DNA of 64,000 nt from Malacoraja senta (taxonomy: Eukaryota), in NCBI GenBank assembly GCA_038087875.1, contig CM075981.1, positions 20,336,001 through 20,400,000 of the forward strand. The letters are read 5' to 3'. Of the stretch, positions 18,001 to 27,000 are shown in pieces; positions within the stretch are counted from its first letter, which is position 1; the number at the start of each line of letters is the position of its first letter. Made by a program: the position numbers.

Positions 18001-21000
18001 CATGTACCTGTCTGTTTCTTAAATGTTGGGATAGTCCCTTGTTCCTTACACCCACCACGCTTTGTGTGTAAAAATTATCCCTCAGATTCCTATTAAATCT
18101 TTTCCCATGATAGATCATGGCTGATCTATCTTTCCCTCTCAACCCCATTCTCCTGCCTTCTCTCCATAATTCCTGACACCCGTACTAATCAAGACCCTAT
18201 CAATTCCCCCACAACCATTGTTGGCAAGGTACATCCTTTTATTCTGAGGCTATGGCTTCTGGTCCTTGACTCTCCCACTAGTGGAAACATCTGCACCTAT
18301 TGTCACAAATGCAAACATTCTTTTTTTTAATTCTTCCCAATGAAATAATTCTTGGACTATAAAGATTATTTCCCTTGTGGAACAAACAGCGTAATACAGC
18401 ATGAAAACAGGCCCTTCGGTCCAACTTGCCATGCCAACCAAGACACAGCCCCACCTGCCCATATTTGGCCCATTTCCCTCCAAACCTTAGGCACAAGGAA
18501 CTACAGTTGCTAGTTTAGAAAAAAATACACAGAATACTGGAGTAACTTAACGGGTCATGTAGCATCTCAGGAGGTTATGGATAGGTGATATTTCGGGGTG
18601 GGACTCTTATTCAGACTGACTTCTTCAGTATGAAGAAGGGTCCCGACCTGAAATGTCAACTATCCATGTTCTCCTGAGAAGCTAACTGACCCGTTGAGTT
18701 ACTCCAGCACTCTGTGTCTTCTTCCCGCTAAACCTATCCTATCCATGTACCTGTCCAAGTGTTTTAATTGCTATTATAATACCAGCCTTAATTACCTCTT
18801 CCGGCAGCTCATTCCATACCCCACCCTCCATATCTTTATTATTTTAGCTCAGTCTGAATTAGCCCTTATGGCAAATTAATCCTCCATCTTCTACGATCAG
18901 CCTCCCTCAGTCAAACAGTGATACATCAGCGGCTGTAAAGATTAAGTGAGGAGCCCCAAGTAAATTCAAAGTCTAGACATTGCTGAATTTTGGGAGATTA
19001 GTGATGTACGTGCAAATGTAACTGTTGGATTCACGCAAGTTCAACCCTGACTGATTTCTTCGCTGCTTATCTTAACGTCAATCTCATTAAATTTATTTCC
19101 TGAAATCTGTTTTTGTTTCCACCCAGGTGTGGGCTTTTAAAATCAGTCTGGCAGCAATCTCCTGTGGGAAGCAGGGTGGGGTTTACTGTTGGGACAAGCC
19201 TGTGTCAATCAGCAACTCTCCGCGCCTGTAACCCTTTGCAGCATCCGTACACAATTCACTGACCTGTTTTGCAGTTTGCAACTGAATTGGCTGCAAATGG
19301 ATAAGAAGTGAATACGCTCTGCATATCAGGTCACAGGTTTGGGAAGCCTTAAACATACGGCCAACGTCCGGGTCAGATTACAACTTTCTACGATTGATGT
19401 TGCCTGGAACGTACTGCCAGGGGTGGTGGTAGAGGCTGGCATGATAGTGGTGTTTAAGAGGCTTTTAGAGAGCCATGTGGATGTGCAGGGAATGGAGGGA
19501 TATGGATCAAGTACAGGTTTTTGAGATTAGTTTGCCTTGGCATCATGTCCAGCACAGATATTTAGGGCCAAAGGGCCTTTTCCCCTGCTATACTGTTCTG
19601 TTTTATGATACAACAACCTCTCACATTGACGTGAGCTTTGATTGATAAAAATACATATCATAGAGTGATAGTCATAGACCCATACAGCACAGAAACAGGC
19701 CCTTCAGCCCAACGTGCCCATACTGACCAAGAAGCCCCATCTACACTAGTCCCACCTGCCTGCATTTGGCCCATATCCCTCTAAACCTTTCCTATCCATG
19801 TACCTGTCCAAATGACTTTTAAATATTGTTATATTATCTACCTCAAATACCTCCTCTGGCAGCTTGTTCCATATACCACCCACCTTCTGTATGAAAAAAA
19901 TCGCCCTTCCGGTTCCTATTAAATATTTCCTCTCTCACCATAAACCTATGTCCTCTGGTTCATGGTTCCCCTATTCTCTGTAAAAGGCTTTTCGATAAGC
20001 GCATGGATATGCAGGGAATGGAGGGATAAGGATCATTGTGAACCCAGGATGAGATTTGTTTGCCTTCGCATAAAGATTCGGACTATTTACTGCAAAATCC
20101 AGCAAGGATTCCATCAAATAATGAGGGCTTCTCTCATCTAATCCTATTAAACTTCAGGAACTATTTTAATTGTAAATCAAATTGAAAATAGGACCTCTGG
20201 AGTAAAGGGTGCAAGTTTCAATTTTAATTTAAAAATTCTGAGGCTTAAAGATTTAGTGTGGTACGGTGGCGCAGCAGTAGAGTTGCTGCCTCACAGTGCC
20301 AGAGACCTGGGTTCAATCCTGACTATGGGTGCTATCAGTATAGCGTTTGTACATTCTCCCCGTGACCACAGGGGTTTTCTCCGGGTGCTCATGTTTCCTC
20401 CCACACTCCAAAGAAGTGCGAGTTTGTACGTTAATTGGCTTTGGTAAATTTACAAATTGTCCCTAGTGTGTAGGATAGTGCAAGTGTGTGGGGATTGCTG
20501 GTTGGCACAGACTCAATGGGCTGAAGGGCCTGTTATCTCTAAACTAAATTAAACTAAGATGTTGAATATAGCTGGTTACTCCTAACGGCTACTTTAAATT
20601 ATTTGTGAAAGTAAATAGATAATTTGGAATATTGGAATATACAGTGGCTTGCAAAAGTATTCATACCCCTTGAACTTTTCCACATTTTGTCACGTTACAA
20701 CCACAAACGTAAATGTATTTTATTGGGATTTTATGTGATAGACCAATACAAAGTGGCGCATAATTGAGAAGTGGAAGGAAAATGATACATGGTTTTCAAA
20801 TTTTTTTACAAATAAAAAACTGAAAAGTGTTGCGTGCAAAAGTATTCAGCCCCCCTGAGTCAATACTTTGTAGAACCACCTTTTGCTGCAATTACAGCTG
20901 CAAGTCTTTTGTGGTATGTCTCTACCAGCTTTGCACATCTAGAGACTGAAATTTTTGCCCATTCTTCTTTGCAAAATAGCTCAAGCTCAGTCAGATTGGA

Positions 21001-24000: not shown

Positions 24001-27000
24001 ATTGTGAAGTGGAAGGAAAATGATACATGGTTTTCAAATTTTTTTACAAATAAAAAACTGAAAAGTGTCACGTGCAAAAGTATTCAGCCCCTTTTACTCT
24101 GATACCCCTAAATAAAATCCAGTGCAACCAATTGCCTTCAGAAGTCACCTAATTAGTAAATAGAGTCCACTTGTGTGTAGTCTAATCTCAGTATAAATAT
24201 AGCTGTTCTGCGAAGGCCTCAGAGGTTTGTTAGAGAACATTAGTGAACAAACAGCATCATGAAGCCCAAGGAACACACCAGACAGGTCATGGATAAAGTT
24301 GTGGAGAAGTTTAAAGCAGGGTTAGGTTATAAACAAATATCCCAAGCTTTGAACATCTCACGGAGCACTGTTCAATCCATCATCCGAAAATGGAAAGAGT
24401 ATGGCACAACTGCAAACCTACCAAGACATGGCCGTCCACCTAAACTGACAGGCCGGGCAAGGAGAGCATTGATCAGAGAAGCAGCCAAGAGGCCCATGGT
24501 AACTCTGGAGGAGCTGCAGAGATCCACAGCTCAGGTGGGAGAATCTGTCCACAGGACAACTATTAGTCATGCACTCCACAAATCGGGCCTTTATGGAAGA
24601 GTGGCAAGAAGAAAGCCATTGTTGAAAAAAAGCCATACGAAGTCCCGTTTGCAGTTTGCCACAAGCCATGTGGGGGACACAGCAAACATGTGGAGGAAGG
24701 TGCTCTGGTCAGATGAGACCAAAATTGAAGTTTTTGGCCTAAATGCAAAACGCTATGTGTGGCGGAAACCTAACACTGCACATCACCCTGAACACACCAT
24801 CCCCACTGTGAAACATGGTGGTGGCAGCATCATGCTGTGGGGATGCTTTTCTTCAGCAGGGACAGGGAAGCTGGTCAGAGTTGATGGGAAGATGGATGGA
24901 GCTAAATACAGGGCAATCTTGGAAGAAAACCTGTTAGAGTCTGCAAAAGACTTGAGACTGGGGCGGAGGTTCACCTTCCAGCAGGACAACGACCCTAAAC
25001 ATACAGCCAGAGCTACAATGGAATGGTTTAGATCAAAGCATATTCATGTGTTAGAATGGCCCAGTCAAAGTCCAGACCTAAATCCAATTGAGTATCTCTG
25101 GCAAGACTTGAAAATTGCTGTTCACAGACGCTCTCCATCCAATCTGACTGAGCTTGAGCTATTTTGCAAAGAAGAATGGGCAAAAATTTCAGTCTCTAGA
25201 TGTGCAAAGCTGGTAGAGACATACCCCAAAAGACTTGCAGCTGTAATTGCAGCAAAAGGTGGTTCTACAAAGTATTGACTCAGGGGGGCTGAATACTTTT
25301 GCACGTGACACTTTTCAGTTTTTTATTTGTAAAAAAATTTGAAAACCATGTATCATTTTCCTTCCACTTCACAATTATGCACCACTTTGTGTTGGTCTAT
25401 CACATAAAATCCCAATAAAATACATTTACGTTTGTGGTTGTAACGTGACAAAATGTGGAAAAGTTCAAGGGGTATGAAAACTTTTGCAAGCCACTGTATA
25501 AGCACTGATACGCATATCTTAGCTAAGCATCTCAGATACAGTACGTATAGCAATAGTACACTAAGACAGTATACATAGATGCCAGTTTGGCACAATTTTC
25601 ATGTCCCAGTTGTAAGTGCAGGGTTCTTAACCTGACAGTGAAGGCCCGTTGTCCTGGTGACATTGGCTTGGCCTAGTGTAGCCGTTGGTGTCCTCTGCCA
25701 CTGCTCCACTCCTAGGCCTCTTGGAGTAGTGTCTGGTCCAGCTGAGCCCCAGGCCACTCCAATGTTGATGCAGTGCCTCATATTCCACTTGGGTAGCTTA
25801 CAACCCAAAGGTTTGAACAGTGAATTCTTCATTCTCAAGTAATACCTCCTCCCCTCCCTCTCTCCCACCTGCCCCTTCTCATCCTGGTACACACACATTT
25901 CCCACACCATCTCTCATCCCCCACACTCATCTTGCTCATTCCCATTCCTTCCCCCACTCACCTCCCATCCCAAATCCCATATTTCCCTTTCATCTCTCTT
26001 CTTTCCCCTCCCCCGTCCCCTTCCACCCATATCCCTTTCTACATTTCACTCCTCCTATTCCTTCCTTCTCTGACACCTTTTGTCTCTTTCACCTCCAGCC
26101 TTTGTCACTCACTCCACCCATCTGTCAATCCACACCTCAAGCATAATCAAGGACCAGTCCCACCCCAGTCATTTTCTCTTCTCCCCTCTCCCATCAGGCA
26201 AGAGGTATAGAAGTGTGAAAACGCACACCTCTAGATTCAAGGACAGCCGTTATCAGGCAACTGAACCATCCTATCAACAACTAGAGTGTGGTCTGAGGAA
26301 GGGTCTTGACCCAAAACGTCACCCATTCCTTCTCTCCAGAGATGCTGCCCATCCCGTTGAGTTACTCCAGCATTTTGTGTCTATCTTCGGTTTAAACCAG
26401 CATCTGCAGTTCCTTTCTACACATGTGGTCCTGACCTCCCATCTATCTAAATGGAGACCATCAAACTGTATTTAATTAGACATTACTGGACTTCATCTTA
26501 CACTGAATGTTATTCCTTTTATCCTGTATCTGTACGCTATGGATGGCTTGATTGTAATCATGTATAGTCTTTCCACTGACTGTTTAGCACACGACAAAAG
26601 CTTGTCACTGTACCTCGGTACGCCTGACAATAAACTAAACTAAACATTTTTAGCAATTATGACCGCAAGAGTGTAGAAAACATAACCAACCTGAAATTTT
26701 CAAAGAACGATAATTTTGCAATCTCCTTCATCAGCTGTTCTGATAATCACTGCATGCATGTTCAATCACAGGCACCAGGATTGGGGCGATCTTTCTTGGA
26801 ATCAGTTCCACGTGGAAGTTTAATCGAGAAAGCTTTACAGATCCCGACAGGTGACATGAATAGAACTCTTGCCAAAAGTATGCAGTAACTAGGCTGTGCT
26901 CGGTGCTACGTTCTGCATAATAATAATACATTTACCCGTTCACTCAACTGAGCTTTATTATAATAATATGTTTTTGAGATGTCATTAATCATTTATGCCT

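What the first reader, a model, noticed from the sequence alone, without database searches (positions are those of the whole stretch)
20642..25496. Two full-length, ORF-intact Tc1 transposons in an inverted 'sandwich' arrangement inside intron 1
Seen: two 1617-bp copies with complete TIRs and TA flanks, transcribed divergently, forming a 4855-bp inverted-repeat structure. Knowledge: inverted pairs of complete Tc1 elements can mobilise the DNA between them (the Sleeping Beauty sandwich configuration) and promote inversion or deletion. Inference: the outer ends could act as a composite transposon, and the semaphorin pre-mRNA could fold into ~1.6 kb of dsRNA (an ADAR or small-RNA substrate). Copy 1 inserted on its own (see the empty-site finding), so the pair most likely arose by independent insertion or local hopping.
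Basis: partly seen in the sequence, partly recalled or inferred. Interest (0 to 1): 0.65.

Follow-up and report, generated by a model that had tools for sequence, protein, structure and literature searches.

The report
Inverted pair of intact Tc1 transposons
Two young, nearly identical copies of a fish-type cut-and-paste jumping gene lie in opposite orientation 1.6 kb apart in repeat-rich non-coding DNA; this is an ordinary by-product of transposon activity, although the pair would fold into a very long RNA hairpin if it is transcribed through.

Summary
Copy 1 (20642-22258, ORF on the minus strand) and copy 2 (23880-25496, ORF on the plus strand) are each 1,617 bp. Each has TA on both sides, ~212-bp terminal inverted repeats (IRs) and an uninterrupted 339-aa ORF. 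They differ at 31 of 1,617 positions with no indels.

The transposase is a DD34E Tc1-like enzyme close to Sleeping Beauty (SB). The element belongs to the IR/DR group and looks Passport-like (IR/DR: long IRs, each holding two direct-repeat transposase-binding sites).

A paralogous repeat copy at 33187-33188 carries one uninterrupted TA where copy 1 sits. So copy 1 inserted alone, and the 4,855-bp unit did not arrive as a composite. Polarised changes are unequal, 15 in copy 1 against 4 in copy 2. Copy 1 carries ten replacements at conserved residues, including one in the glycine-rich strip, so it looks older and probably impaired.

The locus is not a true SB "sandwich". Its inner ends are intact and cleavable, and its orientation mirrors the engineered vector.

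Long dsRNA is physically plausible (1,596 pairs, -3,091 kcal/mol), but transcription, editing and small RNAs are untested.

The semaphorin intron context could not be verified: 0 of 705 ORFs match Sema, and the likely exon lies in masked N.

Verdict: real, ordinary, modest interest.

The parts
20640..20641 (.). TA flanking the outer end of copy 1 (one half of its target-site duplication)
   Evidence: Read directly. The paralogous empty site has a single TA.
20642..22258 (-). Copy 1: complete 1,617-bp Tc1-like (IR/DR, Passport-like) element. It is the more decayed of the two.
   Evidence: It holds 10 of the 12 amino-acid differences as departures from the family consensus and 5 unique IR changes.
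20642..20853 (-). Copy 1, 3' (right) IR. This is the outer left end of the 4,855-bp structure.
   Evidence: Outer and inner direct repeats are present (I5/I6).
20860..21879 (-). Copy 1 transposase ORF, 339 aa, uninterrupted. The DDE residues are kept, but it carries G187V, P120S, L225R and F197V among others.
22047..22258 (-). Copy 1, 5' (left) IR. This inner end faces the spacer and its terminus is intact.
22259..22260 (.). TA flanking the inner end of copy 1 (other half of its target-site duplication)
   Evidence: Its continuation, starting TGTCAG, matches the paralog after that paralog's single TA.
22261..23877 (.). Spacer of 1,617 nt of host repeats between the two TAs. No recognisable gene.
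   Evidence: Spacer ORFs had no Pfam match.
22338..22570 (+). SINE-like repeat copy inside the spacer
   Evidence: D1, D5.
23878..23879 (.). TA flanking the inner end of copy 2
23880..25496 (+). Copy 2: complete 1,617-bp element, close to the family consensus
   Evidence: It has the consensus residue at 10 of the 12 differing positions.
23880..24091 (+). Copy 2, 5' (left) IR. This inner end faces the spacer and its terminus is intact.
24259..25278 (+). Copy 2 transposase ORF, 339 aa, with D152, D243 and E278 (DD34E)
25285..25496 (+). Copy 2, 3' (right) IR. This is the outer right end. It has one substitution (position 18) inside the outer direct repeat.
25497..25498 (.). TA flanking the outer end of copy 2
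20259..20641 (+). SINE-like repeat unit into which copy 1 inserted (left part)
   Evidence: 83.5% identical over 387 aligned columns to 32803-33188, running right up to the insertion point.
33100..33205 (+). Paralogous 'empty site': the same repeat family, uninterrupted, with a single TA at 33187-33188

Best explanation
These are two separate insertions of one young Tc1-like DNA transposon family (IR/DR group, Passport-like and Sleeping-Beauty-like, DD34E). They landed in TA sites 3.2 kb apart, in opposite orientations, in repeat-rich non-coding DNA. Copy 1 went in first, into a SINE-like repeat, and has since decayed neutrally. Copy 2 is younger, or comes from a better-kept source, and is close to the family consensus. 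The inverted 'sandwich' was therefore built on the spot and is a by-product, not a unit that arrived together. If an active transposase of this family is present, the expected events are, in order of likelihood: excision of either single element; occasional aberrant pairing of ends from the two elements, causing local rearrangement; and only rarely movement of the whole 4.9-kb unit. If an RNA polymerase reads through the region on either strand, the transcript can zip into a ~1.6-kb near-perfect duplex with a ~1.6-kb loop. That is the kind of substrate ADAR enzymes edit. Shown here: the anatomy, the family, the solo insertion of copy 1, the unequal decay and the folding energy. Inferred: the order of insertion, the transposase activities, the rearrangement potential and everything about RNA.
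For: Anatomy. Family: both ORFs match Pfam HTH_SB, HTH_Tnp_Tc3_2 and DDE_3. The SB100X catalytic domain 5cr4 matches residues 112-339 at E=1.5e-87 without gaps. D152, D243 and E278 have the same spacing as SB D153, D244 and E279 (PMC4820933 passages). The four IRs are on average 97% identical over 224 aligned columns and share an outer and an inner direct repeat (I5/I6). The terminus resembles the Passport (PPTN) end given in primers in PMC2651795 (passages), and a Pleuronectes platessa protein is 85% identical over 94% of the query. Solo insertion of copy 1: its left flank aligns to 32803-33188 up to the last base. That paralog then continues after a single TA with sequence matching 9 of the first 12 bases of copy 1's right flank. 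Similarity between the two arms ends 1-2 nt beyond the TAs, so this is not a larger inverted duplication. Neutral decay: of 16 ORF differences, 4 are synonymous and 12 non-synonymous, pN/pS 0.88. Differences run at 1.4-3.6% in every part of the element, and 21 of 31 are transitions, 11 in CpG context. Unequal decay: against 14 homologues, copy 2 has the majority residue at 10 of the 12 differing positions and copy 1 at 2 of 12. Unique IR changes number 5 in copy 1 and 2 in copy 2. The combined 15 v 4 gives binomial p=0.019; amino acids alone, 10 v 2, give p=0.039. IR position 191 is G in both IRs of copy 1 and A in both IRs of copy 2, which suggests different source copies. No conversion tract is evident: the longest identical run is 235 nt, and P(>=235)=0.22 under random placement. 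RNA: 1,586 Watson-Crick pairs, 10 G-U pairs and 21 mismatches; duplexfold gives -3,091 kcal/mol with 1,596 pairs.
Against: The polarity of changes rests on homologues from other species that are 73-91% identical, and on only 19 sites, so p is only about 0.02-0.04. If copy 1's states are the consensus of a subfamily, the age difference disappears, although separate insertion would still hold. The family's copy number in this genome is unknown, so I cannot say whether two copies 1.6 kb apart exceeds the random expectation, or whether local hopping from a third nearby copy is involved. Copy 2's two flanks could not be checked against an empty site. No read-level or population data were available to exclude a misjoin inside copy 2. 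Nothing here shows that the region is transcribed.
Confidence: 0.8

Rival explanations
1. Local hop with template repair. One copy is the direct offspring of the other: it excised, reinserted 1.6 kb away in the opposite orientation, and the donor site was restored from the sister chromatid.
For: The copies are very close together. Sleeping-Beauty-type elements are described as hopping locally (PMC1584263, passages). The copies share lineage-specific residues that differ from the alignment consensus (consensus line compared with the ORFs).
Against: After such an event both copies should decay equally, but polarised changes are 15 v 4, p=0.019. IR position 191 differs between the copies yet is the same in both IRs within each copy. 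Divergence of 1.9% means any such event was not recent.
Confidence: 0.1
2. A working natural 'sandwich' composite. The two outer ends are used together, so the 4,855-bp unit, including 1.6 kb of host DNA, moves or has moved as one transposon.
For: Two complete elements in inverted orientation flank a cargo, which is the general layout of the SB sandwich vector (PMC5715130; PMC2874221; PMC4229213; passages in each). The outer ends have complete IRs with both direct repeats and TA flanks.
Against: The unit did not arrive as one piece: copy 1's own two flanks are contiguous in the paralogous empty site. In the engineered vector the inner ends are mutated so they cannot be cut, and the right IRs face the cargo. 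Here the inner ends are intact and are the left IRs. SB-type transposition falls off steeply with length (PMC4229213; PMC7827188). Copy 2's outer IR has a substitution inside its outer binding site.
Confidence: 0.03
3. Assembly artefact. Only one copy exists and the inverted duplicate was created by misassembly.
For: Repeats 98% identical at kilobase scale are a known difficulty for assemblers (general knowledge, no call). Copy 2's flanks have no independent check.
Against: The copies differ at 31 sites spread along the whole length. All four junctions are distinct, and each ends precisely at the element terminus with TA. The spacer is ordinary unique-plus-repeat sequence, not a fold-back point. 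Copy 1's two flanks agree with one another through the paralog.
Confidence: 0.03
4. Hairpin trigger locus. Read-through transcripts of the pair form dsRNA covering the whole transposase message and act in trans, through small RNAs or through heavy A-to-I editing, to restrain this transposon family. The model is maize Mu killer.
For: The full-length inverted duplication gives a predicted duplex of 1,596 pairs. Mu killer is an inverted duplication of a transposase gene, and a ~4-kb hairpin RNA made by read-through from a flanking gene has been proposed for it (PMC3440606, abstract in the search listing). Paired inverted repeats are the main A-to-I editing targets in zebrafish and other animals (PMC8096273, passages).
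Against: There is no evidence of transcription, editing or small RNAs. Intronic RNA is short-lived. Each element can first fold on its own ~210-bp IRs, which are energetically equivalent to the cross-pairings (-354 to -366 kcal/mol). That vertebrate somatic cells process long dsRNA into siRNAs poorly is recalled, not from a call. Nothing suggests selection for the arrangement: both copies decay neutrally.
Confidence: 0.1

Closest known systems
Passport (PPTN) and Passport-like IR/DR Tc1 elements of fish and frogs
   Same: Length is 1,617 bp against 1,626 bp. Both belong to the IR/DR group and have TA targets. The terminal bases nearly match the PPTN end given in primers in PMC2651795 (passages). 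The transposase ends in GSTKY, as the Passport CDS primer does. A plaice protein starting MKTKELT is 85% identical over 94% of the query. Passport is a native element shown to be active (PMC2651795).
   Different: No Passport reference sequence was available for direct alignment. The best database relatives are only 88-91% identical. The host appears to be a cartilaginous fish rather than a teleost or frog, on weak evidence. Activity has not been tested.
Sleeping Beauty transposon and transposase
   Same: The catalytic domain aligns without gaps to SB100X at E=1.5e-87. The DDE spacing is the same, and the element has the Pfam HTH_SB domain, a glycine-rich strip and ~210-230-bp IRs with two binding sites each.
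   Different: SB is a reconstructed consensus; these are native copies. The left and right IRs here are 96-99% alike. Whether there is a left-only half-site enhancer as in SB (PMC7827188) was not examined.
Sleeping Beauty 'sandwich' (SA) vector
   Same: Two complete elements in inverted orientation bracket a cargo, giving eight transposase-binding sites (PMC4229213).
   Different: In SA the innermost ends are mutated and cannot be cleaved, and the right IRs face the cargo. Here the inner ends are intact and are the left IRs. The natural unit was assembled in place by separate insertions.
Pairs of nearby cut-and-paste elements that undergo alternative transposition (Ac/Ds in maize and rice; SB concatemers in mice)
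   Same: Closely linked elements with usable ends in several orientations. Such pairs generate deletions, inversions and translocations (PMC1584263 passages; PMC3239180 and PMC1592236, abstracts in the listing).
   Different: Those cases have a known active transposase and observed rearrangements. Here neither is shown.
Hairpin-forming inverted repeats in transcripts: Alu pairs as ADAR substrates, maize Mu killer, and IR-triggered SOS splicing
   Same: Reverse-oriented copies within one transcript pair into dsRNA (PMC8096273; PMC3440606; PMC12779559 abstract).
   Different: This duplex would be about five times longer than an Alu pair and nearly perfect. No expression, editing or small-RNA data exist for it.

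Membership tests
Tc1/mariner superfamily, Tc1-like DD34E | TA target-site duplication | tested here: met
   TA lies on both sides of both copies. The paralogous empty site for copy 1 has a single TA.
Tc1/mariner superfamily, Tc1-like DD34E | Catalytic DDE triad with 34 residues between the second D and the E | tested here: met
   D152, D243 and E278 are present in both copies. The alignment to SB100X has no gaps. SB's triad is D153, D244 and E279 (PMC4820933).
Tc1/mariner superfamily, Tc1-like DD34E | N-terminal bipartite paired-like helix-turn-helix DNA-binding domain | tested here: met
   HTH_SB scores 59.1 and 58.1 bits and HTH_Tnp_Tc3_2 scores 86.9 and 78.5 bits, all above the curated cut-offs.
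Tc1/mariner superfamily, Tc1-like DD34E | Glycine-rich strip with three consecutive glycines | tested here: inconclusive
   Copy 2 has G187-G189, equivalent to SB G188-190. Copy 1 has V at 187. The feature is met in copy 2 and broken in copy 1.
IR/DR subgroup (SB, Passport) | IRs of about 200-250 bp, each with an outer and an inner direct repeat | tested here: met
   IRs are 212 nt. The shared core GCAAAAGTATTCA occurs at positions ~10-22 and ~195-207 of every IR (I5, I6).
Passport-like family | High sequence identity to PPTN/Passport in the transposase and the termini | tested here: inconclusive
   A plaice protein is 85% identical, and the terminus is similar to the PPTN primers. No reference Passport sequence was available for direct alignment.
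Autonomous, active element | Transposase catalyses excision and integration of its own ends | not testable with these tools
   The ORFs are intact. Copy 2 is near the consensus and copy 1 carries 10 departures at conserved sites. Activity needs a transposition assay.
SB sandwich-type composite | Two complete elements in inverted orientation around a cargo | tested here: met
SB sandwich-type composite | Innermost ends disabled so that only the outer ends are cleaved | tested here: not met
   Both inner ends keep the terminus and the TA, and the first 93 nt are identical in both inner IRs and in copy 1's outer IR. The SA design is described in PMC4229213.
SB sandwich-type composite | Right IRs face the cargo and left IRs are outermost | tested here: not met
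   Here the 5' (left) IRs face the spacer.
SB sandwich-type composite | The unit transposes as one piece | tested here: not met
   For its arrival at this locus, copy 1's own flanks are contiguous in the paralog. Future mobility is not testable here.
dsRNA / ADAR or small-RNA substrate | Long, near-perfect intramolecular duplex | tested here: met
   1,596 pairs, -3,091 kcal/mol, longest perfect run 235 bp. This is an in-silico result only.
dsRNA / ADAR or small-RNA substrate | Both arms present in one transcript; A-to-I clusters or small RNAs observed | not testable with these tools
   No expression data are available. The host gene is not verifiable.
   None of the 705 distinct ORFs scanned matched Sema, PSI or plexin. 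The masked stretch 7027-7241 is preceded by AG and followed by GTAA, which is consistent with a hidden exon. I did not fill it.

The most novel reading that the evidence does not exclude
The pair is a naturally assembled, full-length hairpin trigger. Read-through transcription from the host gene yields a ~1.6-kb dsRNA covering the entire transposase message of a family that may still be active. That dsRNA restrains the family in trans, through small RNAs in the germline or heavy A-to-I editing. It would be a vertebrate counterpart of maize Mu killer, caught soon after it formed.
Probability: 0.08. Interest if true: 0.6.

Novelty: new member of a known kind. Interest (0 to 1): 0.3.

Why it matters
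Native vertebrate Tc1-like elements with intact ORFs are uncommon but known; Passport is one. Copy 2 is a reasonable candidate for an active, or very recently active, transposase in what is probably a cartilaginous fish, so it is worth a transposition assay.

The locus is also a clean natural case for three questions:
- Which pairs of ends does a transposase choose when four equivalent ends lie within 5 kb?
- Do such pairs seed rearrangements?
- What does a cell do with a kilobase-scale, near-perfect intronic hairpin?

None of this changes current understanding, because the arrangement is what random or local reinsertion of an active family is expected to produce now and then.

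Tried and rejected
1. Host gene. I scanned 750 stop-to-stop ORF references against Pfam, 705 of them distinct. They comprise all 583 N-free ORFs of at least 48 aa on both strands, 17 of the 31 ORFs of 47 aa, and 150 of the 252 plus-strand ORFs of 30-54 aa downstream of 25496. There were 0 Sema, PSI or plexin matches; the above-cut-off matches were transposon proteins, apart from one marginal GIY-YIG match. A TB-domain match at 49695-49856 (minus strand) was below the cut-off (E=0.0011) and the peptide has only 3 cysteines, so I treat it as chance. 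ORFs were searched one at a time.

2. Rfam at gathering thresholds on the whole window gave 0 matches.

3. CpG-island scan for a promoter: several weak patches, nothing decisive.

4. Larger inverted segmental duplication: rejected, because the arms end 1-2 nt beyond the TAs.

5. Gene conversion between the arms: no tract. The longest identical run is 235 nt, p=0.22.

6. Empty site for copy 2: none in the window.

7. Host lineage from the CR1-like reverse transcriptase. The most identical named hit is Mobula birostris at 66%. Unnamed hits reach 74%, and birds are 43-56% identical. This is suggestive only.

8. One search failed on a formatting error (a slash in a search term) and was not repeated. 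One search failed the same way and was corrected.

Not done:
- The host genome was not available, so family copy number, other pairs, the spacer elsewhere, and polymorphism were not examined.
- Supplementary files of the cited papers were not seen. They might list Passport-like or Tc1 families in cartilaginous fish.

Full report
What is there. The window holds two copies of one 1,617-bp element, at 20642-22258 and 23880-25496. As reverse complements they differ at 31 of 1,617 positions with no indels, 98.08% identity. Every end abuts a TA (20640-41, 22259-60, 23878-79, 25497-98). Each copy has ~212-nt IRs and one uninterrupted 339-aa ORF, on the minus strand in copy 1 (20860..21879) and the plus strand in copy 2 (24259..25278). 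The 5' ends face each other across a 1,617-nt spacer (22261-23877), so the ORFs point outward, and the whole structure is 4,855 bp. BLAST of the element and tblastn of its protein find only these two copies in the 64 kb.

What family it is. Both ORFs match Pfam HTH_SB, HTH_Tnp_Tc3_2 and DDE_3 above the curated cut-offs. Residues 112-339 align without gaps to the crystal-structure sequence of the Sleeping Beauty SB100X catalytic domain (5cr4, E=1.5e-87). D152, D243 and E278 sit where SB has D153, D244 and E279 (PMC4820933, passages), which gives the DD34E spacing. The four IRs are on average 97% identical over 224 aligned columns. Each carries the same core motif near its tip and again about 185 nt further in (I5/I6). 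This is the IR/DR layout described for SB (PMC7827188, passages) and for Passport (PMC2651795, passages).

Relatives. Of 8,000 scored candidates, 6,463 proteins had E<=1e-20. The best were 88-91% identical: three unnamed records, then Oreochromis niloticus and Pygocentrus nattereri at 88%, Xenopus tropicalis at 85%, Polypterus at 84%, and a Pleuronectes platessa protein at 85% over 94% of the query. That plaice protein begins with the residues encoded by the Passport CDS primer, and the element's terminal bases closely resemble the PPTN end in the same paper's primers. I therefore file it as a Passport-like IR/DR Tc1 element. The caveat is that no reference Passport sequence was available to align.

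How the pair arose. Similarity between the arms stops 1-2 nt beyond the TAs, so this is not a larger inverted duplication. Copy 1 sits inside a SINE-like repeat. Its left flank (20259-20641) aligns at 83.5% to 32803-33188, right up to the insertion point. In that paralog a single TA (33187-33188) is followed by sequence matching 9 of the first 12 bases after copy 1's right-hand TA. This is a family-level empty site. It shows that copy 1 inserted by itself with a TA duplication. It also shows that the 4,855-bp unit did not arrive as a composite, because then the repeat would resume after 25498, and it does not. No such check exists for copy 2.

Relative ages. The 31 differences are spread over all parts of the element at 1.4-3.6%. 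Twenty-one are transitions and 11 are in CpG context. In the ORF, 4 are synonymous and 12 non-synonymous, pN/pS 0.88. This is the pattern of neutral decay after insertion. The intact ORFs reflect youth, not selection.

Against 14 homologues, copy 2 has the majority residue at 10 of the 12 differing positions and copy 1 at 2. Copy 1's departures are I42M, T82A, P120S, F133L, T183I, G187V, F197V, L225R, T239A and P323H. G187 corresponds to the first of the three glycines on which the SB clamp loop pivots (PMC4820933). Copy 2's departures are R104H and K127T.

In the IRs, copy 1 has 5 unique changes and copy 2 has 2. One of copy 2's is at position 18, inside the outer binding site of its outer IR. 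Position 191 is G in both IRs of copy 1 and A in both IRs of copy 2. The combined 15 v 4 split has binomial p=0.019; amino acids alone, 10 v 2, give p=0.039. This argues that the copies are of unequal age or come from different source copies. It argues against one being the recent offspring of the other. There is no long identical tract that would indicate gene conversion: the longest run is 235 nt, P=0.22. Pairwise distance is 1.94% after Jukes-Cantor correction. Converting that to years would need a substitution rate I cannot obtain here.

The sandwich idea. Reviews describe the SB sandwich as a cargo flanked by two complete IR/DR pairs in inverted orientation (PMC5715130; PMC2874221). The fuller description adds a key feature: the 5' terminal CA of the right IRs is mutated so that the innermost ends cannot be cleaved, leaving only the outer ends as substrate (PMC4229213, passages). 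The natural locus differs in two respects. Its inner ends are intact, and the first 93 nt of both inner IRs are identical to copy 1's outer IR. Its inner ends are the 5' (left) IRs, so the orientation is the mirror image.

With four equivalent ends, the short, canonical pairings (each element on its own) should dominate. This is all the more so because SB-type transposition drops with length. Composite movement is therefore possible in principle but disfavoured, and it has not happened in this locus's history.

Nearby elements can promote rearrangement: SB mobilised from linked copies in mice gave deletions, inversions and translocations (PMC1584263, passages). Inversely oriented Ac/Ds pairs do the same in plants (PMC3239180 and PMC1592236, abstracts in the listing only). 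Whether any transposase of this family is active in this genome is unknown. Copy 2 is the better candidate.

The RNA idea. On either strand, a transcript crossing the whole region could pair 1,586 Watson-Crick and 10-11 G-U positions out of 1,617. The longest perfect run is 235 bp, and RNAduplex gives -3,091 kcal/mol with 1,596 pairs for the plus strand. Three qualifications apply:
- The elements' own transcripts diverge and do not overlap, so only read-through transcription can supply both arms.
- Each element can first fold on its own ~210-bp IRs. All four IR pairings are equivalent at -354 to -366 kcal/mol, so even a single copy gives ~210 bp of dsRNA.
- Intronic RNA is short-lived.

Paired inverted repeats are the main A-to-I targets in zebrafish and other animals (PMC8096273, passages). 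IR pairing in mRNAs also triggers a recently described excision system (PMC12779559, abstract). In maize, an inverted duplication of a transposase gene read through from a neighbouring gene is proposed to silence its family (Mu killer; PMC3440606, abstract in the listing). For C. elegans Tc1, reliance on read-through transcription is mentioned in PMC3878927 (passage). The original Sijen and Plasterk paper I saw only as a reference entry there; its content is recalled. All of this makes editing or small-RNA production a fair prediction if the region is transcribed, but nothing here tests it.

The gene context. I could not verify 'intron 1 of a semaphorin'. I scanned 705 distinct stop-to-stop ORFs singly against Pfam. 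They comprise all 583 N-free ORFs of at least 48 aa on both strands, 17 of the 31 of 47 aa, and 150 of the 252 plus-strand ORFs of 30-54 aa downstream of 25496. None matched Sema, PSI or plexin. The window contains two masked N runs (6315-6920 and 7027-7241). The second is preceded by AG and followed by GTAA, as an exon would be. If so, everything from 7242 to the end of the window could be one plus-strand intron containing the pair. I did not fill or look up the masked letters, so this remains open. The window does not look human: it holds SINE-like, CR1-like and Tc1-like repeats.

Host. GC is 43.6% and CpG observed/expected is 0.42, which is vertebrate-like. A CR1-like reverse transcriptase at 28312-29487 (minus strand) is most identical, among named proteins, to one from the manta ray Mobula birostris (66%). 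Unnamed records reach 74%, and bird CR1 proteins are 43-56% identical. I also recall the SINE-like repeat as typical of sharks and rays, but that is recollection, not a test. If the host is a cartilaginous fish, 88-91% protein identity to teleost and frog elements would point to horizontal transfer. This has been argued for Passport-like elements (PMC2651795) and for another Tc1 group. That other group did not amplify from cartilaginous fish (PMC3516227, passages).

Verdict. The finding is real and accurately described: two separately inserted, young, ORF-intact Passport-like Tc1 elements in inverted orientation. It is a new member of a known kind. The sandwich-transposon reading is weaker than proposed. 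The dsRNA reading is physically sound but untested, and the host-gene claim is unverifiable in the visible sequence. Interest is modest.

Noticed in passing
window 6315-6920 and 7027-7241: Two masked N runs. The second is preceded by AG (7025-7026) and followed by GTAA (7242-7245), as an internal exon would be. The 106 nt between the runs is CA-rich low-complexity sequence. Left unfilled.
   Followed up: partly
window 20259-20641 and 16 other places (e.g. 32803-33188, 27052-27319, 41286-40985, 22338-22523): An abundant SINE-like repeat family of ~270-440 nt whose tail is made of CTAAA repeats. Sixteen other places align over at least 150 nt to the copy beside copy 1. Rfam reported no match anywhere in the window at gathering thresholds.
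   Followed up: partly
window 28312-30381, minus strand: A CR1-like LINE fragment: two adjacent ORFs of 392 and 297 aa, both matching RVT_1 (E=1.7e-22 and 5.5e-4). The most identical named relative is from Mobula birostris at 66%.
   Followed up: partly
window 12980-13285, plus strand: A 102-aa ORF with a GIY-YIG nuclease match just above the Pfam cut-off (23.6 v 22.6 bits, E=6.4e-5). It could be a remnant of a Penelope-like element; that attribution is recalled, not tested.
   Followed up: no
copy 2 transposase (24259-25275) against the protein database: The nearest proteins (88-91% identity) come from teleosts, Xenopus and unnamed records, and none from a cartilaginous fish, although the host looks chondrichthyan. 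This hints at horizontal transfer of a Passport-like element. No protein was more than 91% identical.
   Followed up: partly
protein P0055: A 339-aa protein 68% identical to this vertebrate-type Tc1 transposase is labelled 'IS630 family transposase [Escherichia coli]' in its source. This is probably contamination of a bacterial record by animal DNA.
   Followed up: no
window 23220-23430 (inside the spacer), with relatives at 3696-3877, 32083-32274, 36748-36948 and 57398-57532: A second interspersed repeat family, 72-81% identical between copies. Unidentified.
   Followed up: no
IR position 191: window 20832, 22068, 24070, 25306: This CpG site is G in both IRs of copy 1 and A in both IRs of copy 2. 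Either the two source copies differed, or the two IRs within an element are being kept alike.
   Followed up: partly
window 34888-35046 (+), 508-669 (-), 59150-59320 (+): Three short ORFs each give a weak, sub-threshold match to the same Pfam family, DUF7155 (E=0.00095-0.0087). They probably belong to one more repeat family.
   Followed up: no
window 54217-54426, minus strand: Another short reverse-transcriptase fragment (RVT_1, E=2.2e-4, below the cut-off).
   Followed up: no
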